Of a DNA stretch of 64,000 nt, positions 555 to 64,000 are shown piece after piece. The position numbers were made by a program, and so were the translations under genes. Each line of letters begins with the position of its first letter. Within the stretch, counting starts at the first letter, position 1. The DNA is from Tubulanus polymorphus (lineage: Eukaryota > Animalia > Nemertea). A model generated the notes under the pieces. It saw only the letters and a list, made by a program, of their open reading frames with translations, was not told where the DNA came from and did no database searches. The stretch covers positions 18,079,101-18,143,100 of the forward strand of contig NC_134025.1 of the NCBI RefSeq assembly GCF_964204645.1. The letters are read 5' to 3'.

Positions 555-593
555 AATCGTGAAAATCAACCAACATATCAAATCCACAAGAAA

Positions 594-1502
594 ATGGATA
601 AAACTTATTTAACAAGAAAAGTTATGGTTTCATATATCGATCAACAATGGCAAGCAGATTTAATTGACAGGAAGAATTTAGAAGAACACAACAAAGGATA
701 TTTCTGGATATTAAATGTTATACATGTATTCAGTAGATACGCATGGTCAATTCCAATCAAAAATAAAACTGGTATAGAAGTTACAAATGCTTTTAAAAAT
801 ATATTTAAAGAAGCTATTCCAGGTAAGATACAATTTGATGAAGGTAAGGAATTTTATAATAAACATTTTAAAAAACTATTATCTGATAACGATGTAGAGT
901 ATTTTTCAACACACTCAGATAAAAAAGCATCTATTATAGAAAGAATTAATAAAACATTGAAAACTAGAATGTGGAAATATTTTACTGCTAATGAAACATA
1001 TAAATATATCGATGTGTTAGATGATTTAGTGAAAGGTTATAATAATTCAAAACATAGTTCTATAAATATGAAACCTATACAAGCTAGAAAAGAAGATAAT
1101 TCAGTTTGGAATAATTTATATGAAGCATTTGTTACACATGATTTTGGAGAACCTAAATTTAAAATAGGGCAACATGTTAGAATATCTAAATATAGAAAAA
1201 CCTTTTATAAAGGTTATACCCCTTATTTTACTGAAGAAATATTCAAGATTAAAAAGATAATATTAACTAAACCTTTTGTTTATAAATTAGAAGATTTAAA
1301 AGTTGAAGAAATATTAGGTTATTTCTATGAACAAGAATTATCACTTGTACCAAATCCAGATGAAATAGAATACAAAATAGAAAAAGTATTGAAAACAAAA
1401 ACTCTTAAAGGAAAAAAGTATTCTTTGGTGAAATATAAAGGGTATGATGATAAATTTAATGAATGGAATTTATCTAGTAAAATTAAAAGAATAAATGAAT
1501 AA
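594..1502 (+). CDS. Retroviral-like (rve) integrase with C-terminal chromodomain, Polinton type; true N-terminus disrupted
   Basis: DDE triad in WQADLID / IQFDEGKEF / IIERINKTLK. Chromodomain YKIEKVLKTK...LVKYKGYDDKFNEW. In-frame upstream NQPTYQIHKK matches copy D. Confidence 0.92.
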   Translation: MDKTYLTRKVMVSYIDQQWQADLIDRKNLEEHNKGYFWILNVIHVFSRYAWSIPIKNKTGIEVTNAFKNIFKEAIPGKIQFDEGKEFYNKHFKKLLSDNDVEYFSTHSDKKASIIERINKTLKTRMWKYFTANETYKYIDVLDDLVKGYNNSKHSSINMKPIQARKEDNSVWNNLYEAFVTHDFGEPKFKIGQHVRISKYRKTFYKGYTPYFTEEIFKIKKIILTKPFVYKLEDLKVEEILGYFYEQELSLVPNPDEIEYKIEKVLKTKTLKGKKYSLVKYKGYDDKFNEWNLSSKIKRINE

Positions 1503-2093: not shown

Positions 2094-2149
2094 TGTATTT
2101 TAAGTATTAATGTATTAGATATGTTAATTAAATAATTTAAATTATTTCA

Positions 2150-2782
2150 AATTAATACCCCCTTATGTCTTTATGGTCTTTAGTAGTTTTAGTACTTTAA
2201 GTACATAAAGAATAACTCTATTTTATCAGTACTGAATAAAATTATTTTTAAAACTACTAAACTACTAAAGACAATAAAGACAATAGAGACATAACAAACA
2301 CATAGATTTATCATTGCTGAATCAAATATAAATAATAAATCTGTGAGATAAATAAATCTTTGATATAATTATTGAATCAAATATATATAATATATCTATG
2401 TGTGTTTGTTGTGTCTTTATTAACTTTAGTACTTTTAGTACATAAAGAATATATCTTTATTTTATTAGTACTTAGAAAAATAAATATATAAATAATTTTC
2501 ATATATGATAAATCTATGATATTTATCATTATTGAAACAGTAATATATAATAAATATGTGTGATAAATAAATATTATTATTGAAACAGTAATATATAAAA
2601 TCTATCAGATGAATAAATATAATTATTGAAACAGTGATATATATATATATATATATTTATGTATTTATCTCTGTAGTAGTTTAGTAGTTCTATTATATTT
2701 TTGAAACTACTTATAATATAAAGATTTATTCTTTATGTACTAAAAGTACTAAAGACAATAAAGACATAAGGGGTATTATATT
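2150..2782. repeat. AT-rich non-coding region with inverted and direct ~55-bp repeats between the convergent viral gene blocks
   Basis: TAATACCCCCTTATGTCTTTA...AGTACATAAAGAATAA (2153-2216) is the reverse complement of 2726-2779. Partial copies near 2250-2295 and 2410-2452. ATTATTGAAACAGT repeats at 2528-2635. Confidence 0.75.
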
Positions 2783-2793
2783 CATATTTTAGA

Positions 2794-3920
2794 TTACTTT
2801 TCTGATTCTAATTCTAAAAACAATTTGAGCCATGCATCTTTCAATTCCTGTGATTTTCTATTACCTTCAACTTCACCTAATAGTTTGGTGTGATAACCAT
2901 CAACAGCATTCAAATTCTTAGCATACAATTCATAAGTTAAATAAATATATTGCTTTAATTTGTCTTCACTTATATTTTTATATTTATTTTTTGCATCATT
3001 TCTTATTTCATTTATAACATCCTGTGAAAAATCTTCATAACTGTAATATTGAATTATTTCATCAAAGTTATCACTTTTATCATCATAATTATCATTAGCA
3101 GCAACTTTTGTCAATTATATTAAAAAATCTGTATTTTTAAATTTTATGAAATAATGCATACCTGAATAATCACCCGGATATGTTTTTATACGTGTTCAAT
3201 CAGTTTTTAGACTTGTTTTGGATTATTTCTTACATAATCGATAAAATTTGATCTATATAATTTCCTATGATTATTATTTTCGATATCAAAAAATACACTT
3301 GGTGCTCTATAAAGACGTTTTGAATCAATAGCTTTTATTGTATGTTCAATAGAATTATCATGTTTAATTTTATCTTTAGGTAAGACAACAACATTACACT
3401 TTTCACATATATTTCTCTCTACATTATCAAAATGTATTTGAGTTAATTTATGCTTTGAAAAAATACTACGACTTATATATTTATCACATTCTTCACAATA
3501 TTTATCATTATTATTATCTTCTTTAGCATTATCATTATCAATTTCACTATCATTATTAAATTCATTTATAGTCTTGTTCTTATTTTTCTTATACTTGAGT
3601 GAATTAAGATGAGTTGCCCAATTCGTATAACTTTTATACTGTTTACATACGTAACAATATTTTTCATTTGTCTTTTTGGTTTTGATATCAGGTTCAATCT
3701 TATCATCATTCGATGTAGAAGGTATAAAATTATCTTCTATTTTAGATTCAATATTATCTTCTTTTTTTATTTCAATATTATCTTCTATTTTACTTATTCT
3801 ATATTTTAATTGATTAAAGTATTCTCCAAAATACTTACTGTATTCATCATGAGGTATTATATCATATATATCTGGTATCATTTCACTTGGAGTTTGTATT
3901 TCATATATTCCTCCTTCCAT
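2794..3920 (-). pseudogene. Viral zinc-finger protein (three CxxC...H...H fingers), probably one frameshifted gene
   Basis: CYVCKQY..THLNS, CEECDKY..KHKLTQIH and CEKCNVV..KHDNSIEH in ORF 3207-3920. Coding-like sequence bridges to ORF 2794-3114. Confidence 0.65.
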
Positions 3921-3944: not shown

Positions 3945-5203
3945 TTAAAATTCTAATACATAGTACACACTATTTAATTGAGAATTTACGATATTTAATT
4001 GCGCGTCAGATATAATATAAACGTGCATTTTAAAATTTAAGCTTCCTTTTTTCTTTTTCATGAATAATTGTATTCCATCTTTAGTGTTCTGTAGTTTTTT
4101 CCCAGAACCATGTAATGAATTATCCTCCGTTGTTCTAAAATCTAACCATAGTGCATATTTATTACCGGTATAAAAATCAATTTGATTAATATTACAATTT
4201 TCAGATGATTTTACTTTTTCATTCATAAAATGTTTTCTAATTCCTGGCCATTGATCTATCATTCTCATTACTTGACAAAATATTTTATTTGCTATACCTT
4301 CGATAGTTATTTCTACTTTTGTTATTTCTGGATTATAATACTTATCAACCTGTATTGCACCATTAGAATATGTTGCAACGGTAAAAAATATTAATATACC
4401 TTTAATAGATCTTCTTGGGAAGTTAATATTCTCATTAATTATTTCATCATGTGCATTAATAGTTACAGTTTTAAATTTATCAATATAATCATATAATAAT
4501 GAAAATCCTTGATTGTATTGAGTTTGAATTATACTTGAAATATTTTTATGTTACTGTATCATATTCTAAACATATATTCGATAATTTATAACTCATATCT
4601 TTATTAACGCTAGATATTACAATTTCATTAACTGGAGCAAATGTTATCTCAAATATAACGTCTTCTTGAATTGCGTATTTATATAAAGGTGCATTATTAT
4701 TTATCAATTCAAAGTCTAATGGGATTTTATATTTGCTTCCATATATACTTTTTATCAATTTATCTAGAGCATTAGTTAATATTGCATTATGTGCTTCTGA
4801 TCTTAATTTATTTTGGTTTTCTGATTCGATGCCTTGAAATATCATATTATTTCTATTTTCTTTAGTTAATCATAAATCTTTATAATGCATAAATAAATTA
4901 TAATCATCTAATGAGTTAAACTGTTTCTGGACCAATCTTTATAGTTAATTTTTTAATCAAATATCTTCCAACATTATCAACAACATAATTATTACTATTA
5001 CCGGTTACTTTTATATCAGCTGATAGATAAATACTATTTGGAACATAAAAAGTATTTTGTGTTAATCGAGGGATTCTAACATATAAAGTTTCATCAGGAT
5101 TAATATAAGAAGGATTATGAGTAATTATATGATGAGATCTTTCTGCTTTAATAGCATTAGATATTCTAGGATTCTTAGAAGGATTTATATAACTCCCACT
5201 CAT
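3945..5203 (-). pseudogene. Putative major capsid protein (double jelly-roll/hexon-like), frameshifted
   Basis: Three collinear ORF pieces total ~420 codons, beta-rich (HHIITHNPSYINPDETLYVRIPRL; NICLEYDTV; KYALWLDFRTTEDNSLHGSG). Best-conserved gene against copy D. Fold is inferred from size, context and recollection of similar animal Polinton proteins. Confidence 0.7.
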
Positions 5204-5223
5204 TTATTTAACAAAAAAATTAA

Positions 5224-6928
5224 TTATTTATTTTTTATCATATTCACTAACCCAAAAATAATTGCACTTACAACTTTAATTAAAAATAAAATAATATGTT
5301 CAGCAGCAAAGTTAAGAATATTCCCAGCAGATTTCAATATAAAACCAACAATCGATGCAATAACTGCACGTAAAGCTGCAGCAGATTTTTGAGATAGTTC
5401 CCATAGATATTTTGCTAATTTTTTAAACCATCCGTAACTTTATCTTGTATAGAATTATTATTGGGAGGTTTATCAGGTTTATTGGGAGTAGGTGTAGATT
5501 TTAATGAATTTGATATGGCTAAACCTATTGTTGTGAATACCATAGTTACAGCTGTTAGAATTGAAAGAATTGTTATTCCTTCTAATTTAAATAATAATTT
5601 TATTCTATCTTTTAATGATATTTCAGAATTTGGTTTTATCGACAAATCTTTAAAAATAACTTTTAATATTTTAATATGATTAAGGTCAAATGATTTTAAT
5701 AATATATCTCTTTCCTTTTCCTGAAATTTTTATTATATTTTAAATCATCTATTTCTTTTTCTAAAGCTAACTTTCTGCATTCATAATCAACTTCATCAAT
5801 TACTTGAAGATTTTTATTTAATTCTAATTGTTTTAATTCTTCATTTGCATGAATTAATTCTTTTTCTAACATGGTTATTTTAGAAAATCTCATCTTAATA
5901 TTAGCAATTTCACCAGCTGATTCTTGCATACCTTTAATTTCTCTACGTGCTTGTTCAGGAAATGCTTCTAATTCGTCATCAGTTAAATCAAGTAATCCTT
6001 TTTCTAGTAAAGATTGCATTCGATTTATTCCAGTTTCAGCACCAGATGTATCTAACATACTATTCATCTGTTCTTCTGTATCACTTAATCTATCAATTTG
6101 TTTTTCTAATACTAATTGTAATTGACTTGAAACATAATCAATTTGTTGAATATCTCTTCTCGATGTTTCTGGTGTTGAAGATCTTAATTTATCTAATCGA
6201 TCTCCATACTCTTCCATTTCAGGATCATAAGTAGGATTTGGATTTGGTTTTTTAAATGGTGAATAATTGTTAATATCAATATTCGGAATTGGTTCTTTTT
6301 CATTTAACCTTTCGAGTACATTCCATATAATTCTGAGAAATTCTAAACCACCTTTTGAACGTTCAATCGTAGATCTTGCTTAATTTCAGGTTCATACATA
6401 TTTTCTTGTTCCATTCTAGATCATTTAATTGTTACAGTTTTCCTATTTAATTCCAGATTATAATACCACGCATCATTTTTAAATTCTAAATTATTCGTGA
6501 AAAATGGGTCATCTTTTAGAATTTGTATTACAATATCTTCTGAATCAACTTTATCTATTACATCTTTTGGTAATAATTCGTTTACAACTGTATCTGTTAT
6601 TCTAGTTTTCATAAAATATAATTCTTTTTTTAAATCAGGAAATTCTTCTTGTTGTAATTGTAATTGATTCATAAATCTTTTTTTTTCTGATCTAGTTGAA
6701 ATTCTACCACTTGCTTCAGCCGCTTTATATCTTTCTAATTTTTCATGTAATTCATCATAAGAACCACTATTATTAGGATCTTAAGTAGAATATACATCAT
6801 CACCATCACCTAAATAAGAATTGTATGCTGATCCATCATCATTATCAATATTAGTTTCATTAAAATCAGGTTGTGGTTCATCACTGTGGGGCGTCACCAA
6901 AAGTATCCATTGGAATATCTTCTTCCAT
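5224..6928 (-). pseudogene. Large viral protein: acidic N-terminus, coiled coil, C-terminal transmembrane helices
   Basis: ORF pieces 6421-6672, 5696-6217 and 5415-5645. TM segments ITILSILTAVTMVFTTIGLAI and IILFLIKVVSAIIFGLV. Homologues in copies C and D. Confidence 0.65.
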
Positions 6929-6943
6929 TTATGTAATAAAAAA

Positions 6944-8298
6944 TTAAAATTTGAAATATAATATTCCTCCTATAACAATTCCTATACAAGTAATAGCTAA
7001 TTCAGTATTTTTATGGGATTTATTATCATTGTTAGTTTTAGTTATATCATGTTGAATATTATCAGTTTTTATATCACCGTGTGGGTACCGTACGGCACCA
7101 TTTTCTGTAGTATTGTAATCTTTTATTTTAGAATCATTATTTAATTTGATATTCTTAGTTTAAGTTTCAGTTGATTGAATATGTTTTTTTATTTTTTTCA
7201 CCTTCCATCAATTTTGGAGCAGTAATAATCTTTTTATTTATATCATTCAATCCAAATGAATTATTTATTGTTGAAGTCTTAATTAAATTATTTTAACCAA
7301 TTATATTTCCCATCTTTAATATTAAATCATTAGAAATAATAAATAGATTAGGGCCTATACAATAATTTAATCTAATATGTGATTTATCTAAATAATTTTG
7401 ATATCTTACAATGTTTTCTGGAATCGATCTATTTTTATCATTATGAATGGAATCTTCAAATAATACTTTGAATTGTTTCTGTGCATCAAATGAAGTGTTA
7501 TCATTTCCAACTATTGGTGATCTTGTTTCACCTTGCGCACCTAGAATACATATCAAATAAGTTCTAATTGATTGATTTATTCTTTGTATACCTGATTTAG
7601 TAAAACCTTCACTATTTTCTAAAATGAAATTAATCCAACCATTATTATTTTGTTGTTATATATTATTATAATATTTTGCTAATTCATTCCAATTTAGTGT
7701 TCTTATATCTGTATTTGTCATTATTTTTCATAATTCTTTAGTATATAATATTCCTAATCCACCCATTTTACCAATTTTTGCTCTAAAATCATTATTTAAA
7801 TTAATATTAAATTCATTACATATTTTATAAAACTTAGAAAAATTAATATTATTATTTAGTTCATTAAAGTATTTTGAACCTGGTAAAGGGCACTCTAATT
7901 CATTCAATATTAATTTTTATTTGAAAATATGTATGAAATCTAAAAAGTGATAACATCAATGGTAAACTTGGTTTGTTTAAATGATCATTCCAACTTATAC
8001 CACACCCTGTTGTTGCGCAATTAACAGCAAAATTTAATTGGTTCTGCCAATACTTCATATTAGATTTTAATAACCATTGTTTTGCCTCATTTAAATTTTT
8101 AAAATTAATTACGTAAACATTGAATATATTTTCCATCTTTACATTAAAATTATTACTTTCAGTAACATAAATACCTAAATTAATTAATGAATTTAAAACT
8201 TCATTTCTATATGAAATATCTTTATTTAAATCTATTGCAGGAATATTATATTTAATTGATTTATAATATTGAAAAGCTTTTGGAAAACTATCTACCAT
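6944..8298 (-). pseudogene. Conserved viral protein with C-terminal membrane anchor
   Basis: ORF pieces 7900-8298 (YWQNQLNFAVNCATTGCG) and 7293-7556. Ends ...ELAITCIGIVIGGILYFKF. Homologue at 60570-61795. Confidence 0.65.
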
Positions 8299-8313
8299 TT
8301 ATATAATTAAAAA

Positions 8314-8768
8314 ATTAATAATTTATTAATTATTTTAATAATTTATTTTGTTCTTCAACTGTTATATTACCATTTAAACTTATTATATAATCTAGTGTGT
8401 TTTTTAATTAATTAATTTCTTTTATATTAGTTTTATATTTTATTTATTTTACTAATTTTTTCTTTATTACTTTTTATATTTAATTTTGAACTAATACCAG
8501 TTAAAACACTTGATGATAATCCTAGCACACCACTTGATATGGCTAAAGGTGTTAATGGACTGAATATTGCTAGAAATGTTATTACAGCACTAATTGTAAC
8601 TGAACCACTTATAATAAAATAATATATAATTTTACTTTTTAAATATTTTTTCTTTTTAACTTTTAAATCATTTTCAAATTCTAATATTTGTTTTTCTAAA
8701 TATGTTTTTAATTTAGTTTTATTTATATCATGGGGAATAATATCAATATTATCAACTTTATCATCCAT
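8314..8768 (-). pseudogene. Viral two-TM protein with coiled-coil flanks
   Basis: IIYYFIISGSVTISAVITFLAIFSPLTPLAISSGVLGLSSSVLTGI hydrophobic hairpin. Homologue in copy D. Confidence 0.65.
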
Positions 8769-9630
8769 TTATTTAGCAAAAAAAATTACTACTTAGTAAG
8801 TTTATATGCTACAAATATAACAATAACAGTTCCACCTAAAATCCAAATTATTTCATATTTATGTTGTTCTTTACTTGGGGTATGATAATCTGATAATTTA
8901 GGTTTGTATAGATGTAATTTTTCTTTATTGGTTACCGCGTTATATAAACTCATTGCATCATCAACTGATTGAAAATCTGGCGCTAGTCCAGTATACGACA
9001 TTATAGTGCGTGTGTAGAGTTACACTGCGTTCTTCGGTCAGTGTTAACAGCGTTTGACAGTTGACAGTTGACAGTTAGAGTAAACGACGAGACGAGCTGG
9101 CAACCTGTCAACCATGACTGCAGTGTGGCTTTTATTTCATCTGCCTTTTGCTGATATTTTTCTTCATTGTAGATTTTCATTGTTTATCATATATGCATTG
9201 TGTAAGAATCATAAGGTTGCGGATGACATAGGCCTATATCTGTTTAATATTTCGAAAATACCAAAAAAGGTACATGAATAAAATTGCAAATCTATTTCCG
9301 GGGCACATTCGCATGCACTTCAGCAATTTCACTGTCAAAACAGGCAAGTTCATGCGTGAATAAGCGTCCCCATATTTACCTATTCACCTAAGTTCATGGT
9401 GCATTGAGCGTTACGTTATTTCGGTATAAAAACGAAATATCAACAACCAATCTGTCAGCACAGATAGCAGCTGATTCAAGCATGAATTCTATCTAACCTC
9501 AAAAAGCGTCGGTGATAATTGACTTCGTAAAGGATGTCCTACCATGTCTGCGACAAGGCATTTATTCTTTAAGCCAGCTCCAGAAACACTTTCGCCAGGG
9601 GCAACCGCTTAACGCCGAAATGCCGAATCG

Positions 9631-9631
<1 letters not shown>

Positions 9632-9725
<94 letters not shown>
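9632..9725. repeat. (TA)n microsatellite
   Basis: Uninterrupted TA run of about 94 bp. Confidence 0.98.
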
Positions 9726-9728
<3 letters not shown>

Positions 9729-10059
9729 TTAACTAATAAAAGTAACAGTAAAATCATTATATTGGGTCTAAGGCTAGGGTTTCGATAGGGTTAGTGTCAA
9801 AAGGGTGAGAAGAGGGTCCGGAGGGTTCCGTTTTACCCCTAGGGATAGGATTAGGGTAAGGTGAGGTACTATAGATAGTTAAAACATTCACATGGTTGTC
9901 AGCGAGCTCGTTGGTCTTGTGGTATGACGCTGCGCTCGTAATCGTATCGGTGGGGTTTCGATCGAATTGCAGATGGCCACGACGTTTACTTTTTAATGAT
10001 ATTTCTTTCTCCTCTAATGCAACCAGACAAGTCGTTCATCTTGGGTTATCATAGGGAGG

Positions 10060-10315
10060 ATGTGTAGGGTGTCACATGTCAAACGTCCTGTGGAGTCATC
10101 ACCTAACTGCTGTGTAGGGTGTCTACTTGTCAACCGTCCTGTGCAGTCATCACCTAACTGTTGCGTAGGGTGTCTACCTGTCAACCGCCCTGTGCAGTCA
10201 TCACCTAACTGTTGTGTAGGGTGTCTACCTGTCAACCGTCCTGTGCATTCATCACCTAACTGTTATGTAGGGTGTCATCTGTCAGCCGTCTTGTGGAGTC
10301 GTCACCCTAGTATGT
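10060..10315. repeat. 51-bp minisatellite, about 5 copies
   Basis: Unit GTAGGGTGTCTACCTGTCAACCGTCCTGTGCAGTCATCACCTAACTGTTGT. Confidence 0.9.
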
Positions 10316-10749
10316 AAGATATCGCATGTCATCAGCTGTAGAATATGGATTCCCAATCAACGATCTATTTTCATGGAAATTCTTTTAGTTCCATATTACT
10401 ACGCGTTTATGTTTCAGCTTGCGCATTAATTCCCCGATTTACTTCAAAAGTATCTCTACACGTTGCACTATAATGTCGTATATCGGACTTGGGCCGAAAA
10501 TCTCTATGTGAAATCTTCTGATCATATAATTCTTTATTGATGTAATCCATATAGTTTTGCCTCTTTTCTCTATATTCTTCTGCTGCTTTATTGTATTTCT
10601 CTAATGCTAAGTTATGTCTTTTTTGTTCTGATAATGAACTATTTTTATCAATATGCTTAAACAAATACCCACCACCAGTAAATGCTAAAGCGTTAACAAT
10701 TGCCGATCCTATAATCGTTATAATTGCAGATGCCATTTATTTAGTAAAA

Positions 10750-10981
10750 ATATTATACATTTATATAGGAGGAATATATTTTTGTTTTCCCAAATAATCA
10801 ATAGCTAAATTAGATAAAGTAACTGCTAATGTTAATTTTAAAATATCATTTATATCAAATCTATCAACATTAACACTTCCCATTTTAAATACTTTTTTAA
10901 AAGCATTGAATAACCAACAGTTCCAACTGATAATAATGCTCCATTATATAATCCAGTTATTATCCACTTATTATCACTCAT
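10750..10981 (-). pseudogene. Small viral two-TM protein (MSDNKWIITGLY...)
   Basis: Frameshifted homologue of the intact ORF 40804-41031. Confidence 0.7.
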
Positions 10982-11152
10982 TTATTTATCAAAAAAATTA
11001 CTATCTTCAAAATATTTTGTTATCTTAGTTATAATGAGGACTCTACGATCGACTGTGGCAAGTCAGTATCACTAGATGGCGCTCAGAATAGTCAGACAGG
11101 ATCACCTGAATGGATGTATGTTGATTAACGCGGTTTTTCGACTATCATGACT

Positions 11153-13155
11153 ATGGAATACAACAAATACTCAAATTTAACCCTAAACGAGCTTAAAATC
11201 ATCCTTCGCAGCAGGAGTTTGAAGGTTTCTTGGAAAAAAGAAGGATCTTGTTGAGAGGTAGGTAGCCTTCAGGGGCGGATCTAGACGGGAGCACGCGGAG
11301 CACGTGCTCTTGTCGCAAATTCTGAGTGCCCTTTTTGAAAAATGTGCGAAATGAAAAATTTTTTAACCCATCTCTTAAAGAATTGTTGCAGAATGTCATT
11401 TTTGTGTCTCAGGTGCCTGGAAATTGCATTTAAATGGGTTAAAATTCAAAAATTTTCTGGGGGAGACCCAGACCCCCACGAAAATAAATAAATAGATTAA
11501 TAGATAGTTGCACTGCAGATTTCTGGATTTCGATTTCTGGGAAAACAGCTTCTAATGTTCTTCTCTAACGTTCGGAGCTGCTGAATTGGCTTTTCCACTA
11601 TGCTGGTCAGAATCGGAGCTTGTTCTTACAGTTATCTTGTACTTTCTTAGATTTTCATTACAGATTAATATTCAATGACGTGCATTTTCATAAAGATGAG
11701 CCCACTGTTGAATACCATATGGATCTCCCTGATTATTCACAGTACAAAGATATTCATAGTCAAATGCTGGATGATTTCCCGGAGGTTACCATGGACAGAC
11801 TGAATGATTATTTGACCACTTGCAGCAAAACATTTGATAAGAAATGTGAGGAGTTATATAATGGGGGGTAGGTCAAAGTTTATGCACTTCTTAAAAGTTA
11901 GTTTTTGTTTAAATGCCTTAACTTGGGTCTACTCATTTGCTTCAGGTATATTCAATATATGCGTACCTGCAAGAGCGATGACAAGATATATGTGACGGAC
12001 AATATATGGGCCGAGATGAAGAAGTCTGTGGCTTACAGGACGGATATCGCATTAGACAAGTTAGGTGTGGTGCAGGAGTGCCAGTGCGAATGTGCGGTGG
12101 GACAGGGTCCGGCTGCCCATTGCAAACATGTTAGCACATCATTGTACGCTTTATCAAGATTCTGTTTAACTGGAAGAATTCTCACAGAGTTGACCTGCAC
12201 GCAAGTACGTTACCAATCGAGTCTGCCTTTTTAAACTTTCAATAGATTTGTTGAAAATGTGGAAAATGATCTCTAATTTTAGGTTCTACAAAAGTTCCAT
12301 CAGGCAAAGGCCTACAAAGGAAGTCCCGTAAAAACAAGAAATATGACTGGAAGTAAAGGCGCATATATATATGATCCTCGCCCACCGTCGAAAAGACCTG
12401 CTGAAAAAATACAGGAAGATACAAGAAACATTATAATCAATTGGCCGGTAAGGTCCTCCATTCTGCTTAAACACATCACATTTATTTAATCGGAATTTAT
12501 GACTGGCCCCTTTTGAATTAATAAGATCAACTTGCAAATGTATATTCTCATAAAATGGCATGGTTGTTAGCAATTATTTTGCTGATTTGTGTTCTTTTGA
12601 CACAGTGATTTGTATTAGAAATTATTCCTTTCAGAACAAGGTAGCAAGACAGCCGATTTTACAATCCTATGGTCCAGGATACAAGGTTTGGCTCATGACC
12701 ATGATTATCAAGAATTTTCAATGGAACACAAGTTTTTGGTGGATGAAAAGGTATGGAAATCACTATGCACCGACATTTTTTTGATGCATGTTGTCTATAG
12801 ATTTGGCTTCAATGAAATGTTTTCCCATTTATAGTTAGTTCGTGTTTGTATGGAAGACGTCAAAGAAATCGAAGAAAGAACTCAAGGTCTAAGTAACAAC
12901 AAACTTTGGATGGAAGAACGAAGGAAGCGGATAACGGCCTCAAATTTCGGAACAATTTGTAAAATGACCAGTGTCAGAAATATAAATCAACTTGTGAATT
13001 CAATGATCTCACCAACAGAATTCTGGTCGAGAAGTATCCAACATGGAAAAAAATACGAGGATATAGCTGTAGATAAATTTGAACGTACAACTGGACTTAA
13101 AAGTAAAAAATGCGGTTTATTCATCTCGGCTAAAACCCCTGTCCTAGCCCATTGA
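11153..13155 (+). pseudogene. SAP + SWIM zinc finger + YqaJ (lambda-exonuclease-like) multi-exon gene, truncated
   Basis: SAP LTLNELKIILRSRSLKVS..KKDLVER; SWIM CQCECAVG...HCKHV; YqaJ RTQGLSNNKLW..ERRKRITASNF..HGKKYE..CGLFI. GT-AG introns near 11258, 11868, 12206, 12448 and 12751. Confidence 0.8.
11270..11490 (+). mobile_element. hAT-like MITE fragment in the first intron
   Basis: Begins CAGGGGCGGATCTAG. Internal GGGGGAGACCCAGACCCCC. Right TIR not found. Confidence 0.4.
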
Positions 13156-13447
13156 CATGATTCATTTCACTTCATCGAACAATACACAATACACAATTGC
13201 CATTCAACAACAATAAAAAGGGAGCCGAGTTTATTGTCACCTAGTTCCTTTCTTGTTGCTTATGTCATTGTTCAAAATGACAATACATGTACTTTAGCCT
13301 ATATCAAACGTTTTATTGAATTAAAGCCTAAAATTACCTTCAAGTGAAGTAGATAAGTAATCGACTTGGTCAAAATGCTCTCCACAAACAGTTGACCAAC
13401 GTGAAGGCGACCAATTATGTTCCCCTCGCTTCACTGCCTGTGTCCAT

Positions 13448-14129
13448 TTATTTCTCAAAATTATTAAATTGAGGAATGCATGGTTTGAAATCACATTCTG
13501 TTAAATTATAATTTATTAACGTTCCAAATTCTTTAACATTCTTCAATGGTAAAATGTTTAATAAACCAGAATTACAAGTTATATCTTTAGTTGCTTCGAA
13601 TGTTTGTGTAGGATCGATTAAATTGCAATAAATATAAAAGTGTGTTAAAGGTATTAAGTTTGGTGTAGCTTCAATATTTGTAAAAGATTTATCTGGAAGA
13701 ATTCCTAACAGTTTAGCTGTAGGTTTTTTTACCATAAATTTATGTTTTTCAATATCAGCCAACCTTATCTTTATTTTGTTAGAACTCTCAATTTTTAAAA
13801 ATCTAATATTAAACCCGGAATTATTACCTGACTTGTGCCATGCTTTTAATTTCTTGTGCCAATGTATCTAAATTATACAATCCTGGTTTTAAATATATAT
13901 AGGCCCATTCATTCTTATTTTTATTAAAAATTAAAAAGGTTAACAGTTTTAAATGTTCAACAGTTTTATTCGATATATTGTAAAATGAGTTACATAAACT
14001 TATATTTACTAATTATAAATCTACACAATTCTTAAATTCTCTATCTAATTGTACTAGTAAATTATGTGATTTATAATTTGTAAGTCTTCTTGAATCAACA
14101 AATATTCTATATTCTTTTAATTCTACCAT
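13448..14129 (-). pseudogene. Putative minor capsid protein (penton, single jelly-roll)
   Basis: MVELKEYRIFVDS..NLLVQLDREF; LKPGLYN; AKLLGI; FYIYCNLID; GLLNILP. Motif order is typical of Polinton/virophage pentons. Confidence 0.65.
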
Positions 14130-14139
14130 TTATTTTACA

Positions 14140-14488
14140 TATTTTCTTATTCGAAATCTATTTCATGGTGCCCTTTTTCATTCTTACCCTTATAAATGAA
14201 ATAGAAATCTCCAGAATATAATTCTTCTAAATCTTCACTTGATAATCTATGAAATCTATCTGGTAAATATGTTCTGAATTTAAATGTATTTCATTTTTAT
14301 CCTTCATATTCTAAGTGGATAACTAATTTATCTCCATATTTGTTAGTAACTGTATCAATATTTGTAATTAGATATTTCTTATGAATTGTTAATTCTGTTA
14401 ACTTCTTAAATTTATAATCTACTGATTTGACATTTGAAGTATCTTTGATTCTATCTAAGAATTCACTGTGTTTTTGTTTACTCTCCAT
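14140..14488 (-). pseudogene. Small viral protein, possibly OB-fold ssDNA-binding
   Basis: KKLTELTIHKKYLITNIDTVTNKYGDKLVIHLE..FRTYLPDRF. Homologue at 42140-42486. Function is inference. Confidence 0.45.
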
Positions 14489-14547
14489 TTTAATAACATA
14501 TTTTTTATTAAAATTGATATTAGAAGTTATTAGATGAATATTTTAAG

Positions 14548-14669
14548 AGTAATAGGGAATAAGTTGTTTCAAGTCAAAGGTTGAAGGGTCGGAAAATAAA
14601 TTCGAGTGTGCGAGAATTTATTTTTCGACCTTTCGACCTTTGGCTTGAAACAACTTATTCCATATTACT
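14548..14669. repeat. Terminal hairpin of virus copy A
   Basis: Two 56-nt arms with 51/56 complementarity and a 10-nt loop GAGTGTGCGA. Bounded by AGTAAT...ATTACT. Confidence 0.92.
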
Positions 14670-15034
14670 ATCGTTAACCATCGAATTTTCAAAACTTTTT
14701 TAATGCCTTGGTGACCACTGGTCTAGTACGCGGTTTTCTAAAACAAAAGTGACAAAGTTTAAAGAACAACTATTGTAACAAATGATTTCAAATATTAGGA
14801 GCCTAATGCGTTTAATGATTTAACTAATTGGTATCGCACTGATTGGTTGAAAGACGGGTGTCATCTTGCCTGTGACTTAAGACATGATTAAGTAAAGGAA
14901 TACTTGGATTTGATAATACGTAGAAGCTTCCCTCAAATCGGTCGATAAGGTCAAATGCTTTTCAGAAATCGAGGGAGAAACGCACTAGCTAATAGGATGG
15001 TTAAATTAAAGCTGTGGGTAGCTTGGTGTCTAAG

Positions 15035-15250: not shown

Positions 15251-15454
15251 TCTCGTCTGATCTGTGTGCATTTGTGGCCAGCACGGCAGATCACAACGAT
15301 CATAGTTAGTGTAGTAATATACGCCAGGGAGAGGCAACATCTGAAATACGTTGAAAAATGCCAATATTTCAAAATTGTTCGTGTGTTCAAAGATCCATCT
15401 TAACCACGGGTCCCCCAGTATGTTGATAAAAACGTTGAATCACTAGATGCACGA

Positions 15455-16816
15455 CTAAACTAAGGGTCCAGGGACACCATGCCCACTTGGAAGTGGTTTC
15501 AAATGCTCAACAATCGAACAATATCAATATTCAATGCCCCCATCCAATGACTTTGAAAAAATACAATGACCTTGAAACTCACCACAATATCAGTAGCTAC
15601 GATTTTGAAATTGATTGTGCAAACAAAATATGCCAAGTTACCACTATCATATGGAAATACTAAGTTATTCTACTATACAACGCCCCCTGGTGACCATATG
15701 CAAAGCCATATGACTTTGAAACTGACCATAATCATAGAACATGTCATGAGCTACAACTTTTCAATTGGTCATGGTAACAAAATATGCCCAGGTGCCAATA
15801 TAATATGGGAATACTTATGTTATTGTATTTTTCAACGCCCCCTGCTGGCCGTATACAAAAACCAATGACCTTGAATATCACCACAATTATAGACCATGTC
15901 ATGAGCTGAGCTTTCCAATTGATTGAGGTACCAATATAATAAGGAAATACTAAGCTATTCTACTTTTCAACGCCCCCTCCCCCCTCGGTGACTATATAGA
16001 ATGACTAATGACCTTGAAACTCACCACAATCATTGAACACATCATGAGGTACAATTGTTCAATTGATTGTGGTGACAAAATATGCATAGGTACAAATATA
16101 ATATAGAAATACTAAGTTATTGCATTGTTCAATACCTCCTGGTGGCCATATACATAAACCTATGACCTTGAAACTCACCACAATCCTAGATCACGTTATG
16201 AGCTACAACTTTCGAATTGATTGTGGTAACAAAATATGCTTAGGTATCAATATAATGTGGAAATATTTTTTTCCACCTACGAATGAGTACCGATTACACC
16301 AAGATGGCCGCCGATTGCGTCACAAATGGCTGATAAAAAATACCAGTATCAGGTATAAAATAACACTTTTCAAAGAAAACCCATCACAAATTGCAATTCG
16401 GAAGTTACAGGACTCGGAATTCAGGCCAAAAATGACATTTTTTTCGGCACAAAAAGGTCTCAGGACAGCCATCTTGAGTCCGATCGACCCAATTTTTCTC
16501 ATGTTGATGAACCCTTGGGGGATACAAATATATCTAAAAGATCAAGGTAATTGGTGAAAGCGAGTTCAAAAATGTGTAGAAAGTGCTAAATTTGGCGAAC
16601 AACAATGGCTGCCAGTCGGCCATCTTGAATCTGAGAGGGCCAGTTTTTTGGGCTGTAGATGTGTCTAGGGTAGATACATGTATAAACCAAATATCAAGAC
16701 ATTACCTTGGAGCGTCTTCAAAACTTCCCAAAAAACTGGATTTCTCTACGGACGGACGATGGACGAAAAGTGAATGCAATAGCCTGCTGGGACTAAAGTC
16801 CCAAGTGGGCTAAAAA
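15455..16816 (-). mobile_element. Non-autonomous Helentron-type element (HINE/DINE-1-like), family II, with internal ~150-bp tandem repeats
   Basis: Minus strand: 5' GCCCACTTGGGACTTTAGTCCCAG, GTCC microsatellite, repeats of ATGACCTTGAAACTCACCACAAT (plus-strand reading), 3' subTIR TTCCAAGTGGGC with a GTCC/GGAC stem-loop and CTTAGTT. Homologous to 29036-30296. Confidence 0.8.
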
Positions 16817-37839: not shown

Positions 37840-38005
37840 AGCGAGTAGAAAATGAAAAATAAATTCGAGCGTGTGAGAATTTATTTTTCATTTTTATGAG
37901 TTTCGCGAGTAATTCAAGTAGAAATTGTTATTATTTTTATGTTTTTCATTTTTTACGAGCTCGACCGTTCGACCTTTGGCCTGAAAGCCCATTACCCCTA
38001 TTACT
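37840..38005. repeat. Partial terminal hairpin of fragment B
   Basis: Inner stem AAAATGAAAAATAAATTC / GAATTTATTTTTCATTTT is kept. Outer right arm CTCGACCGTTCGACCTTTGG..TATTACT is present, outer left arm is absent. Confidence 0.75.
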
Positions 38006-42567: not shown

Positions 42568-42718
42568 AGTAATAGGATAAGTCTTGTTTCAGATTAAAGG
42601 TCGAAAGGTTGAGTGAGTAGAAAATAAAAATAAATTCGAGCGTGTGAGAAATTATTTTTCATTTTTTATGAGCTCGACCTTTCGCCCTCTGGTATGAAAC
42701 AAGACTTATCCTATTACT
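42568..42718. repeat. Terminal hairpin of virus copy C
   Basis: 151 nt. Outer 24 nt perfectly complementary (AGTAATAGGATAAGTCTTGTTTCA / TGAAACAAGACTTATCCTATTACT). Loop GAGCGTGTGA. Confidence 0.92.
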
Positions 42719-57856: not shown

Positions 57857-59100
57857 TTAATATTGAATACTATCTAATTGAGAATTTATAATATTCAATT
57901 GCGCGTCAGATATGAAATAAATATGCATTTTATAATTTAAACCTTTTTCATGAATAATTGTATACCATCTTTTGTATTTTGTAATTTCTTCCCAGAACCA
58001 TGTAATAAATTATCCTCTGTTGTTCTAAAATCTAACCATCATGCAAATTTATTACCGGTATAATAATCAATTTGATTAATATTGCAATCTGCAGATGATT
58101 TTATTTTCTCATTCATAAAATCTTTTTTTTAATTTCTATCCATTGATCTATCATTCTCATTCCCTGATATAAAATATTTTATTTGCTAAACCTTCAATTG
58201 TTATTTCCACTTTTGATATTTCAGGATTATAATAATTATCAACTTTTTTGCACCATAAGAAAATGTTGCAATGGTAAAAAAGTATTAATATACCTTTGAT
58301 AGATCTTCTTGGGAAGTTAATATTATCAGTAATTATTACATCATTTGCATTAATAGTTACAGTTTTAAATTTATCAATATAATCATATAATAATGAAAAT
58401 CCTTGATTGTATTGAGTTTGAATTGTGCTCGCAATATTTTCATCAGTTAATGTGTCTTATTCTAAACATATATTCGATAATTTATAACCCATATCTTTTA
58501 CAACGCTGGATGATACAATTTCATTAACAGGGGCAAATGTTATTTCGAATATAATATCTTCTTGTATAGCATATTTATATAAAGGTGCATTATTATTTAT
58601 CATTTCGAAGTCTAATGGAATTTTATGTTTGCTTCCATAAATCTTTTTTATTAAATTATCTGCAGCATTACTTACTATTGCGTCATTAGCCTCAGATCTT
58701 TATTAATTTTGGTTTTTTTGATTGGATGCCTTAAAATATGATATTATTTCTATTTTCTTTTGTTAACCATAAATCATTATAATGCATAAATACATTATAA
58801 TCATCTAATGAAAAAGCTGTTTCTGGTCCACTCTTTACAACTTATTTTTTAATTAAATATCTTCCAACATTATCTACGACATAATTATTATCATGACCAG
58901 TTACTTTTATATCAGCTGATACATGAATACTATGTGGAACATAAAAAGTATTTTGTGGTAATCGAGGAATTCTAACATATAAAGTTTCATCAGGATTAGT
59001 AAGTATTAGATGGATTATGAGTAATTATATGATAAGATCTTTCTGCTTTAATTGCATTAGATATTCTAGAATTCTTAGAAGGATTTATATAACTCCCACT
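57857..59100 (-). pseudogene. Putative major capsid protein, copy D (heavily frameshifted)
   Basis: Collinear nucleotide similarity to 3960-5203. Confidence 0.75.
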
Positions 59101-59123
59101 AATTTATTAAGAAATAAAATTAC

Positions 59124-62100
59124 TTATTCATTTTTTTTAATCATATTCACTAATCCAAAAATAATTGCACTTACAACTGTAATTAAAAATAAAATTATAT
59201 GTTCAGCGGCAAAACTAATAATATTTCCAGCAGATTTTAAAACTAAACTAACAATTGATGCAATAATTGCGGGCAAAGCTGCAGCAGAATTTTTAGATAA
59301 TTCCCTAGATATTTTGCTAATTTTCCAAACCATCTTTAACTTTATCTTGTATAGAATTATGACTTGGAGGTTTATCTGGTGGTTTAGGAGTAGGCGTAGA
59401 TTTTAATGAATTTGATATAGCTAAACCAATTGTTGTAAAAACCATAGTTACAGCTGTTAGAATTGAAAGAATTGTGAAACCTTCTAGTTTAATTAATAAT
59501 TTATTCTATCTTTTAATGATAATTCAGAATCTGGTTTTATCAACGAATTTAAAAATAACTTTTAATCTATTGATATTATAAGCATATTTTTTTATAAATG
59601 TATTTTTTTCTTTTTCCTGTACTTCTAAATTATCTTTTACATTATCAATTTCTTTTTCTAAATATGCATTTCTTTTTTTAAATTCATTTTCTTCAATAAC
59701 TTTATTATCTCTATCTAACGTTAATTGTTCCAATTCTTCATTTGCTTTAGATAATTCATCTTCTAAAGTTTTTATTTTTTGATCTCTAATCATTCTATCG
59801 TGTGAAATTTTATCAGATGCATGTCTTACGCCTTTAATTTCTCTAATTGCTTCATCAGAAAATATATTTAAATCTCCTAATTCTTGATCTGTTGCATCAA
59901 GTAACCCATTTTGTAAAAGTTTTCAGTTTGAACTTCGGTTGATGTAAGTTTACTAGTTTTGGAATTAATAATTTCTTTAGGAATTGTTTCTGGTTCTAGA
60001 TTTTCATTAATTATCTTCAAAAAATCAACATTTCTTTGGTTAAATTCTCTTTTATTTAGAATTATCTCTTGTTCTGTAACATCAGTTATAACATCATTAT
60101 TGATTTTCTTAATTCTAGATATTTCTAATTTAATTAAAGTTGGTTTTGTTATTATTTTATCAAGACTTTTATTAGAAGATATCTAAAAATAATAGTCATC
60201 TTTCAAATGCAAATAATAATCACCATTTAAATATTTCAAATCTTTTACTAAATAATTCATACCTATATTAGTTATATTGAATCCAGATTTTTTAAATATT
60301 GGTTTAAATTTTTCAGTTAATTCATCATGTTCTAATTCTTTTTTTACTAAATCTGGATTTTGATTTTCAATATCCTATCTTGAACGTGCTTTATTATGTT
60401 ATTGATTAGTATCAGGTCTTGCTAAATTAGAATTATATGCTGTTTCATTATCGTTACTAAAACTTGTTTCATTAAAATCAAGCTGTGGTTGTTCGATTAT
60501 ACCAGGTCCATCGTAAGTACCCATATCATAATCTTCTACACCTTCCATTTATATAATAAAAAAAATTTTAAAATTTTAAAAAAATTCAGAATATAATATT
60601 CCTCCTATTACAATTCCTATACAAGTTATAGCTAATTTAGTATTTTCATGTGATTTATTATCATTATTAGTTTCAATTATATCATGTTGAATATTATCAG
60701 TTTTTATATTATCTGATGTATTGTAATCTTTTATTTTAGAATCATTATTTAATTTAATATTTTTAGTTTCAGTTACAGTTGACTGTATATTTTATTGAAT
60801 TTTTTCACCTTCCATTAGTTTTGGAGCAGCGATAATTTCTTTATTTATATCATTTAATCAAAATGAATTATTTATTGTTGCAGTTTTAATTAAATTATCA
60901 TAACCAATTATATTTCCCACTTTTTATATTAAATCATCAAAATAATTAATAAATAAGGACCTATACAATAATTTTATCTAATATGTGATTTATCTAAATA
61001 ATTTTGATATCTGACTATATTTTCTGAAATCGATCTATTCCTATCATTATGAATAGAATCTTCAAATAAAACTTAAAATTGTTTCTGTGCGTCAAATGAA
61101 GTATATTCCCAACTATTGGTGATCTTGTTTCAACTTGTGCTCCTAATTTACAAATCAAATATATTCTTATATATTGATTTATTCTTAGTATTCCAGGAGT
61201 GGAAAAACCTTCACTATTTTCTAAAATAAAATTAATCCAACCATTATTATTATCAATTTTATAATTATGATAAGCTCCAACTATATATAATCAATTGTTT
61301 TTATTTCAAACTGTTCACCCACACCATGCAATTTACCATGCGCTCTAAAATCGGAATTATAATTTATATTAAATTCATTACATACTTAGTAAAACTTAGA
61401 TAGATTAATATTATTATCCAATTCTTTTAAATATTTCGACCCAGGTAAAGGACTAATGTTAAATCAGAATAATTCAAATTTGTATCTAAGTTATTAAGGT
61501 GATTGTTCCAACTTGTTGTTGCACAATAAACAGCAATATTTAATTGATTCTGCCAATATTTCATATTAGATTTTATTTTATATATATTATATTCATCTCG
61601 AGTAAAAGTAACTTCATATGTATTAAATATATTTTCCATTCTAGAAATAAAAAACTTTGTTTCAGTAACATAAATTTCTAAATTAATTAATAAATTTAAA
61701 ACTAAATTTTTGTATGAAATATTTTTATTAAAATCTATTGCTGGAATTTTATATCTAATTGATTTATTATATTGGAAAGCTTTTGGAAACCCCATTTATA
61801 TAATAAAAAAATTAATAATTTATCTTGTTCTTCAAATGTTATATTACCATTTAAACTAATGATATAAGATAGTATATTTTTGAAATTTATTAATTTCTTT
61901 TATATTAGATTTTATTTTTTCTTTGTTACTTTTTATATTTAACTTGGAGTTTATACCAGTTAAAACACTTGATGATAATCCTAGCACACCAATTGATATA
62001 GCTAAAGGTGTTAATGGACTGAATATAGCTAAAAATGTTATCACCGAACTAATTGTAACTGAACCACTAATAATAAAATAATATATAATTTTACTTTTTA

Positions 62101-64000
62101 TGTGGGGGGGGGGCATACTATATTCACTTCGTCGTTCGTCCGTCTGTCCGTCCGTCTGTCCGCAGTGGTTTCCGTGCCCTAGCACCCAAACCCTTTGACA
62201 AATTTTCCTGAAATTTAACAACTGTGTTGTACTAGATGAGGTTAATAACTGATTAGATCCTTTTGGATCCTGTAGGTCCAAGATCAAGGTCACAGGAAGT
62301 CATTTTGTAAATTTCATTTCCGGGCTCAAACTCATCAACGGTTTAAGATAATAGGTGAAATTTTATGGATAAGTTATCCTAGAGACTGTGGGTAACTGAT
62401 TAGATTTGGGTCCCGTAGGTCCAAGGTCAAGGTCACAGGAAGCCATTTCGTAAATTTAATTTCCGGGCTCTAACTCATAAACGATTTGAGATAACTCAAT
62501 GAAATTCTAGGGATGGGTTATCCCAGGGACCGTGGGCAACTGATTAGATTTTGGAACCTGTAGGTCAAAGGTCAAGGTCACCAGGAGCTGTTTTGTATTT
62601 TTAATTTCCAGGCTCTATCTCATGAACGATTTAAGATAACTTGCTGAAATTTTATGGATGGGTTACCCTAGAGACCTTCAGTGACTGCTTAGATATCGGG
62701 TCCTGTAGGTCTAAGGTCAAGGTCACCAGAAGTTATTTTGCTATTTTGATTTCCGGGCTATAACTCATAAATGGTTTAAGATAACTTGGTGAAATTTAAT
62801 TGATGGATTGTCCTAGAGCAAATAGATAACTGATTAGATGTTGGGTCCTGTAGGTCAAAGGTCAAGGTCACCAGAAGTTGTTTACGTGTTCCTTGCGTAT
62901 TTTCTTTGTTTCCTATCATGTACATTTTTTACACATTATTTTGCCCCCTTGGGACTTACTCTGAGCAGGCTATTGCATTCACTTTTCATTCGTTGTGTCT
63001 CCGTCCTCAAGGACTAAGGGTTACTGATCAATTTTTTTGGCCTATAGGTCCTAAGTCACTGGCACGGGGAGTCATTTTGTTCTTTTCGTTTGCTGCGGCT
63101 TCATATACAATTCAATATATCCTCAAGGTGTACTTTACTCTCAGGCGTTTCACCTGATGTGGGGGCATCAGTCGTCTTCAGCGACATTCTAGTTAAATAT
63201 TTTTTCTTTTTAATTTTCAAATCATTTTCAAATTCTAATATTTTTTTCTAAATATATTTTTGATTTAGTTTTATTTATATCATGAGGTATAATATTAACA
63301 CTTTCAATTTTATCTTCCATTTATATTATGAAAAAATTACTAATAAGTAAATTTATATGCTACAAATATAACAATAATTGTTCCACCTAAAATCCAAATT
63401 ATTTCATATTGTTGTTGTTCTTTACTTGGGGTATAATAATCTGATAATTTAGGTTTGTATAGATGTAATTTTCTTTATTGGTTACCGCGTTATATAAACT
63501 CATTGCATCATCAACTGATTGAAAATCTCTATGTGAAATCTTCTGATCATATAATTCCTTGTTAATATAATCCATATAGTTTTGTCTCTTTTCTCTATAT
63601 TCTTCTGCAGCTATATTGTATTTCTCTAATGCTAAGTTATGTCTTTTTTGTTCTGATAATGATCCATTTTTATCAATATGCTTAAATAAATATCCGCCAC
63701 CAGTAAATGCTAAAGCGTTAACAATTGCCGATCCTATAATAGTTATAACTGCAGAAGCCATTTATTTAGTAAAAAAATTACGCGTCAATAGGAGGAATAT
63801 ATTTTTGTTTTTCTAAATAATCAATTGTTAAATTAGATAAAGTAACTGCTAATGTCAATTTTAAAATACCATTTATATCAAATCTATCAACATCAATACT
63901 TCCTATTTGAATACTTTTTTTAATACCATTGTATATATCCAACAGTTCCAACTGATTGAAATGCTCTATTATATAAACCAGTTATTAGCCACTTCTGATC
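59124..64000 (-). mobile_element. Virus copy D membrane-protein block (59124-60548, 60570-61795, 61820-63320, 63341-63761, 63778-64000)
   Basis: Same gene order as 5224-10981 in copy A. T-run/TAAATG starts at 60548, 61795, 63320 and 63761. Confidence 0.85.
62098..63194 (+). mobile_element. Family III HINE with ~150-bp GGTCAAGGTCAC tandem repeats
   Basis: Inserted in TTACTTTT|AAATATTTT (empty site at ~8640 in copy A). GGGGGCAT near both ends, (GTCC/GTCT)n, 3' GTCG..CGAC stem-loop and CTAGTT. Confidence 0.85.

What the first reader, a model, noticed from the sequence alone, without database searches (positions are those of the whole stretch)
14548..14669. Virus terminus is a 122-nt fold-back hairpin with AGTAAT...ATTACT at both ends
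Seen: 56-nt arms with 51 matches and a 10-nt loop, sitting exactly at the virus/host boundary. Four of the five mismatches are G-T wobble-compatible on the + strand. Established: Polintons have TIRs starting AG(T) for protein-primed replication, whereas hairpin ends characterise poxviruses, asfarviruses and parvoviruses. Inference: the terminal motif is duplicated in inverted form, so the end could self-prime, be resolved as a cruciform by a helper resolvase, or act as a structured RNA.
Basis: partly seen in the sequence, partly recalled or inferred. Interest (0 to 1): 0.85.

Follow-up and report, generated by a model that had tools for sequence, protein, structure and literature searches.

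The report
Hairpin-tipped Polinton-type endogenous virus
A 122-base fold-back palindrome forms the last bases of a decayed, many-copy Polinton-type virus in this genome, and it likely lets the loose DNA end prime or repair itself, as a 2026 preprint proposed for related viruses of a protist.

Summary
The hairpin is real: 56-nt arms, 51 pairs, 10-nt loop, z -18. It is a true element end: reads run into diverse flanks behind 14669. It recurs in the window, complete at 42568-42718 and half at 37840-38005, each beside a related terminal gene.

The outer 24 bp match within a copy (23/24, 24/24) but not between copies (17-18/24), so pairing is maintained. Reads suggest hundreds of copies, about two arms per loop, and longer forms.

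The element is of Polinton lineage: double-jelly-roll capsid, rve integrase, A32 ATPase. More distant relatives encode pPolB; none was seen in the window or in the five closest contigs, all incomplete.

Best reading (0.45): the 3' end folds back to self-prime or repair the end. A July 2026 preprint already describes terminal palindromes and this model in protist virophages and PLVs. This is a new variant, probably in an animal.

Not shown: the other end, target-site duplications, flip/flop isomers, absence of pPolB, absence of free-standing copies.

The parts
14548..14603 (+). Inner arm of the terminal palindrome, an inverted copy of the element end beginning AGTAATAGG
14604..14613 (+). 10-nt loop; same loop core and same orientation in copies B and C
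14614..14669 (+). Outer arm; last base 14669 is the element end
   Evidence: 355 loose ends, agreement 0.37
14484..14547 (-). Non-coding leader between palindrome and terminal gene; its 14484-14530 part is shared with another terminal gene type (likely promoter, inferred)
   Evidence: 611 reads diverge before 14484, depth rises to about 1100
14153..14488 (-). Broken terminal gene, about 115 aa family of unknown function, read away from the end; also first gene in relative L003
   Evidence: no family or fold assigned
13454..14114 (-). Broken gene homologous to L003:565-1326; likely minor capsid protein (label recalled, not tested)
   Evidence: no Pfam or PHROG hit
11036..13446 (.). Later insertion, GC 38%, with YqaJ-like exonuclease remnant
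10391..11035 (-). Small conserved element genes, collinear with L003
9021..10390 (.). Later insertion, GC 40%
5233..9020 (-). Broken conserved element genes of unknown function (homologues of L003 ORFs of 485, 442, 144 aa)
3945..5203 (-). Major capsid protein gene, broken into three frames; family folds as a double jelly roll
2130..2800 (.). Nested inverted repeats between convergent genes; a hairpin lies at the same place in L001, L002, L005
1495..2090 (+). A32/FtsK-type packaging ATPase, broken
567..1502 (+). rve integrase with chromodomain, 5'-truncated; left limit of this copy
42568..42718 (+). Copy B terminal palindrome, 151 nt, end of truncated element 39628-42718
37840..38005 (+). Copy C terminus: loop core with an 18-bp stem and a long outer arm, no inner AGTAAT copy; end of AT-rich element about 35000-38005 with a distantly related terminal gene
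57857..64000 (-). Copy D, capsid half of a related element; its integrase part lies at 52131-52946 (L003-type gene order); terminus beyond the window

Best explanation
The palindrome is the end of a many-copy Polinton-lineage virus, and on a single-stranded intermediate its 3' end would fold back onto the inner copy of the end sequence, where a polymerase likely extends or repairs it without needing a terminal protein. Shown: position at the end, recurrence in independent insertions, arms matched within each copy, Polinton-lineage capsid, integrase and ATPase. Follows from geometry: on the + strand the terminal T (14669) pairs with A14548, with the element body as template beyond it. Inferred: a single-stranded stage, use of the 3'-OH as primer, copying of one arm from the other as the cause of arm matching, and the polymerase source (host or helper element). 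The AG...CT end would be kept for the rve integrase (inferred). How a hairpin-closed end is reopened is not explained; no nickase or resolvase gene was found.
For: (1) End position and recurrence: A, B, and one contig of run X1 (record 7) that covers 14534-14669 without gaps and then runs on for 29 unlaid letters. (2) Outer 24 columns match within copy 23/24 and 24/24, between copies 17-18/24; 6 of 6 left-arm differences are mirrored in the right arms, although the adjoining gene region differs by 12%. (3) A lacks 14-15 nt on each arm at mirror positions relative to B. (4) Mismatches lean to G-T on the strand whose 3' end is the terminus (10:2 pooled, p 0.039); that strand folds better (-49.2 against -40.4). 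(5) In reads the outer arm is about 1.9 times as deep as the loop (5366 against 2876), as expected if most ends are palindromic. (6) The end reads AGTAAT in 5 of 5 arms, not the (AGT)2 repeat that allows jumping-back in protein priming (PMC8097293). (7) No pPolB match in the window or in 5 of 5 contigs of the closest capsid clade. The two relatives whose AGTAGT-type ends were seen (L018, L063) encode pPolB and have no hairpin that includes the terminal bases. (8) The same association and model are in 10.64898/2026.07.28.741278 section 7.
Against: No flip/flop: 3 of 3 window copies have the loop in one orientation, and the inner-arm asymmetry is inherited by B and C; the reads could not test this. 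Copy C has no inner end copy, so not every end is a full palindrome. No HUH motif or resolvase hit. Absence of pPolB is unproven: all five close contigs (2.4-11.5 kb) and all window copies are incomplete, and L006, in the next enclosing clade (57% capsid identity), carries pPolB. The six mirrored differences sit in columns 10-16 and may be one or two events. Columns 25-45 show little within-copy matching (17/21, 15/21 against 13-17/21). Depth ratios come from two references and two likeness settings and are rough. The G-T bias is not significant in copy A alone. No experiment or extrachromosomal form was seen.
Confidence: 0.45

Rival explanations
1. Ordinary protein-primed Polinton end with a doubled recognition site: the palindrome acts in duplex or cruciform form as a binding or cutting signal for integrase or pPolB (own or helper), and arms are matched by gene conversion.
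For: AG...CT end kept; pPolB in 9 of 72 related loci on the capsid tree, including L006 in the enclosing 15-row clade; fixed loop orientation in 3 of 3 copies fits no hairpin transfer; L063, a pPolB element, has a 24-bp stem 130 nt inside its end.
Against: End is AGTAAT, not (AGT)2; a cruciform gives no reason for a strand bias of wobble pairs (10:2); no pPolB trace in the window or the closest clade.
Confidence: 0.22
2. The palindrome is a TIR-only mini-element (MITE or satellite made of two element ends) that moves alone using the integrase, and one such unit became fixed at the end of this lineage.
For: It has two correctly oriented ends around a 10-nt core; the loop core is 3.7 times and the outer arm 6.9 times deeper than the A-type terminal gene; lengths vary (122, 151 and longer).
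Against: 3 of 3 window copies sit at the same place beside related terminal genes; no direct repeat flanks the palindrome in A or B (TTTAAG/ATCGTT, TATTAG/TTTCAG); depth does not drop across the inner junction (about 780 at 14529-14565 against 772 in the gene); the loose ends of 2862 reads at the arm tip resemble the element's inner leader (agreement 0.43); other terminal gene types share the end and can explain part of the excess depth.
Confidence: 0.15
3. A neutral by-product: template switching or snap-back at the linear end once made an inverted duplication, which is carried along and occasionally re-copied without a function. The Halocafeteria preprint names this alternative too.
For: Copy C lacks the inner arm; arm length varies; inner asymmetry is tolerated.
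Against: Kept in lineages 12% apart with the outer 24 bp matched in each; the arm-to-loop ratio near 2 suggests that it is the rule, not an accident.
Confidence: 0.12
4. A structured RNA (long hairpin or small-RNA precursor) transcribed across the end on the + strand.
For: G-T compatible mismatches lie on the + strand; a conserved 10-nt loop.
Against: Rfam gives 5 hits, all below gathering score, four of them generic miRNA hairpin models; the matched genes of this half are on the - strand and start downstream of the palindrome; the stem ends exactly at the DNA end, which an RNA does not need.
Confidence: 0.06

Closest known systems
Terminal palindromes of endogenous virophages and PLV subtype 4 of Halocafeteria seosinensis (bioRxiv 10.64898/2026.07.28.741278; passages and section 7 read; supplements not seen)
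   Same: Palindrome at the very end of an integrated, rve-integrase, capsid-encoding element; linked there to non-pPolB replication genes; same hairpin-priming model and same by-product alternative.
   Different: There: protist host, 52-nt palindromes in subtype 5, complete elements with other replication genes. Here: capsid of the Polinton lineage, AG-type end, palindromes of 122-151 nt and longer, hundreds of copies, probably an animal host (inferred), and no replication gene found so far.
Polintons/Mavericks of animals (PMC8097293 passages; 10.1101/2023.08.22.554363 passages; coral polintoviruses 10.1101/2023.10.06.561300 passages)
   Same: DJR capsid, rve integrase, packaging ATPase, AG...CT end; capsid relatives include complete AGTAGT-ended pPolB elements (L018).
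   Different: End motif AGTAAT instead of (AGT)2; inverted inner copy of the end; no pPolB seen. 'Hairpin' has 0 hits in all three papers; 'palindrom' has 0 hits in the two searched for it.
Parvovirus terminal hairpins (recalled; AAV papers seen only as search listings)
   Same: 3' end folds back over about 120-150 nt and could prime synthesis.
   Different: No HUH/NS1 nickase motif found, no T or Y shape, no flip/flop seen, dsDNA-type capsid and an integrase.
Adenovirus mutants with embedded inverted terminal repeats and panhandle end repair (recalled; search did not return these papers)
   Same: An internal inverted copy of the end can template repair of the terminus on a displaced strand.
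   Different: Laboratory mutants of a protein-primed virus; here a natural and fixed feature of an integrating element.

Membership tests
Polinton/Maverick | [quoted passage not shown] | tested here: met
   Family model pLDDT 90.6 matches iridovirus, PBCV-1 and mavirus capsids, best E 1e-16; model is of relative P0001, 75% identical to the window fragment
Polinton/Maverick | rve integrase | tested here: met
   PF00665 34.5 bits, above cut-off 32.6; chromodomain just below cut-off
Polinton/Maverick | Packaging ATPase | tested here: met
   PF04665 weak on the broken window gene (E 0.004), above cut-off on the L003 orthologue, 73-89% identical pieces
Polinton/Maverick | Protein-primed PolB | tested here: inconclusive
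   No tblastn match in the window or in L001-L005, but all are incomplete; present in 9 of 72 loci on the tree
Polinton/Maverick | Terminal inverted repeats at both ends | not testable with these tools
   No copy in the window has both ends; no genome held
Polinton/Maverick | 5-8 bp target-site duplication | not testable with these tools
   Needs both ends of one copy
Polinton/Maverick | (AGT)2 or (AG)3 end repeat | tested here: not met
   AGTAAT in 5 of 5 arms: starts with AG but is not a perfect repeat (motifs)
Polinton/Maverick | Maturation protease and minor capsid protein | tested here: inconclusive
   No protease family hit in the ORFs scanned; minor capsid label for 13454-14114 is recalled only
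Palindrome-ended virophages/PLVs (Halocafeteria type) | Palindrome at the element extremity | tested here: met
Palindrome-ended virophages/PLVs (Halocafeteria type) | Non-pPolB replication gene (primase-helicase, PolA-helicase) | tested here: inconclusive
   None found in window ORFs or L001-L005 ORFs scanned; sequences incomplete
Rolling-hairpin replicons (parvovirus type) | HUH nickase | tested here: not met
   Strict HUH regex gave 0 hits in seven window regions and L001-L005; no Pfam or PHROG hit; a divergent Rep could be missed
Rolling-hairpin replicons (parvovirus type) | Flip/flop isomers of the hairpin | tested here: inconclusive
   3 of 3 window copies in one orientation; opposite-strand joints in short reads are explained equally by arm symmetry
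MITE | Independent insertion with own target-site duplication, unlinked to genes | tested here: not met
   For the three window copies: linked to terminal genes, no flanking direct repeat in A or B. Other genomic copies untested

The most novel reading that the evidence does not exclude
A polymerase-free family of about 12 kb animal Polinton-type viruses, keeping capsid, ATPase and integrase, has replaced protein priming by a self-priming hairpin end and is copied by host polymerase: a parvovirus-style start on an integrating double-jelly-roll virus, present in hundreds of copies. The hint for the size is L005, which has copy A's gene order and ends about 220 nt past its last gene in a terminus-like stretch with no polymerase in between; that similarity was not significant by local alignment (score 23, shuffle 95th percentile 26).
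Probability: 0.25. Interest if true: 0.8.

Novelty: new variant of a known kind. Interest (0 to 1): 0.5.

Why it matters
How Polintons leave the chromosome and replicate has not been shown experimentally (recalled); the standard model needs pPolB and a terminal protein. A high-copy Polinton-lineage family with palindromic ends, a non-repeated end motif and possibly no polymerase would extend the hairpin-priming idea from one protist preprint to (probably) animals. Hundreds of copies make it testable by sequence alone: flip/flop ratio, one end or both, link to polymerase loss. If pPolB turns up in full-length copies, it remains an unusual terminal repeat of modest interest.

Tried and rejected
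No whole genome is held, so no copy census. Viral contigs: loop motif 0 matches; capsid alignment 0 relatives of 137 candidates; L005 terminal ORF 0 of 13; the end-to-end motif gave 11 loci, none with a stem (2-14 of 31 further pairs), so chance. Function of the terminal gene: model pLDDT 57, no fold match with E under 0.001, nothing in PDB, Pfam or PHROGs for the 17-member family; my recalled guess of a single-strand-binding OB fold is untested, and the protein atlas did not answer. Terminus-like ends of L005 and L003: not significant or borderline against shuffles (23 against 26; 59 against 58 at the 95th percentile). The L069 hairpin encloses telomere-type repeats at a contig start and was set aside as unrelated. 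Opposite-strand read joints were rejected as evidence of flop isomers, because symmetric arms give the same signal. No RNA holder listed. Run X5 (marine metagenome) laid only 6 pieces, none on the palindrome: no evidence either way. The capsid tree is the quick tree; the careful search did not finish, and 11 of 83 loci with capsid matches under 330 residues were left out. Look-ups of earlier notes by sequence or place found nothing.

Full report
OBSERVATION. The sequence at 14548-14669 is as described: two 56-nt arms around a 10-nt loop, 51 pairs, four G-T type mismatches and one G-A. It folds at -49.2 kcal/mol as DNA, z -18.4, 0 of 200 shuffles. Apart from a TA microsatellite it is the only ungapped hairpin of score 22 or more with a loop up to 40 in the window (that scan misses copy B, which has gaps).

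IT IS AN ELEMENT END, AND NOT UNIQUE. Self-comparison shows 13447-14669 repeated at 41441-42718 (77%). Copy B ends in its own 151-nt palindrome (z -10.2), begins at the same inner junction, and diverges from A at the base after ATTACT. A third end, C (37840-38005), has the same loop core and a longer outer arm but no inner AGTAAT copy; its neighbouring ORF is weakly similar to A's terminal gene (35% over 59 aa, E 0.07). Raw reads of run X6 (same species label as the best holder X1; about 12% of the run read) give about 770x on A's terminal gene, against 6-16x from 14899 on, and 355 loose ends behind 14669 with agreement 0.37. An X1 contig matches 14794-15000 with no difference, which supports the same species. 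Taking the lowest bin (5.8x) as an upper bound of single copy, there are at least about 130 copies of the gene and 500 of the loop core. The immediate right flank (14677-14861) is another high-copy repeat.

ANATOMY ACROSS COPIES. In the outer 24 columns the two arms of one copy agree (23/24, 24/24) while arms of different copies do not (17-18/24); 6 of 6 left-arm differences are mirrored, and 7 of 51 consensus pairs changed on both sides. These differences cluster in columns 10-16 and may be few events. Further in, the arms are imperfect, and B and C share the same asymmetry and loop orientation. A lacks 14-15 nt on each arm at mirror positions relative to B. On reference A, 596 reads continue behind 14626 and 865 before 14593 with other sequence; the first set resembles C's longer arm, so longer palindromes seem common (my reading of mixed loose ends, agreement 0.61-0.72). 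On reference C the outer arm is 5366x and the loop core 2876x, a ratio of 1.9. This fits palindromic ends as the rule, but also free palindromes; the loop is 3.7 times deeper than A's gene. Other terminal gene types share the leader (611 reads diverge before 14484) and 48 reads join C's leader to an inner end copy, which accounts for part of the excess.

THE ELEMENT. Copy A runs from about 567 to 14669, with two later insertions (net 10.3 kb). It holds an rve integrase, an A32-type ATPase and a capsid gene with 925 homologues among 1588 candidates, whose family model is a double jelly roll. Of 173 metagenome stretches encoding relatives the best 80 were kept, plus 3 of 28 from genome contigs. 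L003 is collinear with A from the terminal gene to the capsid; L001, L002 and L005 share A's order on the integrase side. On the quick capsid tree the window fragment falls in a clade of six (support 100) with L001-L005, none of which shows pPolB on 2.4-11.5 kb. The enclosing clade (99) contains L006 with pPolB; overall 9 of 72 loci carry pPolB and 3 a helicase-type protein. L018 has an AGTAGT start and 99-nt inverted repeats; L063 also starts with that motif; both encode pPolB and neither folds its terminal bases into a hairpin. Most other loci do not reach an end, so they say nothing on hairpins. The host was not identified; 'animal' is my inference from the capsid family and repeat landscape (recalled).

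MECHANISM. On the + strand the last base is a 3' end, and fold-back places it on A14548 with the element body as template. That is the geometry of a self-primer, and of end repair from an embedded inverted repeat. It accounts for near-perfect pairing at the base of the stem, tolerance of wobbles in the middle on that strand (10:2 pooled, p 0.039; 4:0 in A alone, p 0.125), mirror-image deletions, and an end motif that is no longer the trinucleotide repeat that PMC8097293 links to jumping-back. Against it: no flip/flop in three copies, no nickase, copy C without an inner arm, and no proof that pPolB is absent. I put 0.45 on this reading, 0.22 on a doubled protein-recognition site in a protein-primed element, 0.15 on a TIR-only mini-element, 0.12 on a neutral by-product and 0.06 on RNA.

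WHAT IS KNOWN. Nine literature searches were run. One paper describes the same kind of end: bioRxiv 10.64898/2026.07.28.741278, section 7 read whole, reports palindromes within the TIRs next to the target-site duplication in four virophage subtypes and one PLV subtype, linked to non-pPolB replication genes, and proposes hairpin priming. Its supplements could not be seen. Passages read of three animal Polinton papers contain no 'hairpin'; passages of PMC11296320 and PMC11161782 describe replacement of pPolB by other replication modules. I found no report of such ends in animal Polintons in these searches, but the library lacks most subscription papers, and Kapitonov and Jurka 2006 was not read. 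Earlier AI notes of this scan mention hairpin-ended, polymerase-less Mavericks and giant palindromic satellites in other genomes; these are unchecked leads, not support.

VERDICT. Real, family-wide and maintained terminal palindrome of a Polinton-lineage endogenous virus; a new variant of a recently described kind. Interest 0.5. If complete copies lack any polymerase and show snap-back DNA, about 0.8.

Noticed in passing
window 2130-2800; L001 3102-3178, L002 3746-3822, L005 3183-3255: Inverted repeats or a 30-bp stem lie between the convergent capsid-side and ATPase-side genes in four copies with unrelated sequence: candidate bidirectional transcript-end signal, like the mimivirus hairpin rule (recalled).
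   Followed up: partly
window 35837-37117: Long 24-bp tandem array in element C, open as (MINCLTVE)n on the - strand, between a zinc-finger-like ORF and the terminal gene.
   Followed up: no
window 38006-39636 and 50489-52139: The same 1.6-kb repeat (88%) abuts terminus C and the truncated element B, and truncates the integrase of copy D.
   Followed up: no
window 15454-16816 and 29037-30298: Inverted arms of about 1.2 kb enclosing 12 kb with 31-bp tandem arrays and a thrice repeated 2.8-2.9 kb unit: a large fold-back type element.
   Followed up: no
window 422-455: CTGAAGA...GAAAC motif resembling a Penelope-type hammerhead ribozyme left of the truncated integrase (recalled pattern, not tested); a Penelope-like RT/GIY-YIG remnant lies at 49684-50472 (also by eye).
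   Followed up: no
L043, L044, L048: Relatives with the same capsid family carry a 1060-1200 aa superfamily-1-helicase-type protein in place of pPolB.
   Followed up: partly
L003 10343-10981, L008 2898-3380: Deoxynucleoside kinase genes in close relatives.
   Followed up: no
window 14147-14522: Reads that go back about 376 nt (26 reads at the main joint) suggest tandem duplication of the terminal gene with its leader in some copies.
   Followed up: no
L063 134-192: Perfect 24-bp stem 130 nt inside the AGTAGT-type end of a pPolB-encoding relative (z -10.3).
   Followed up: partly
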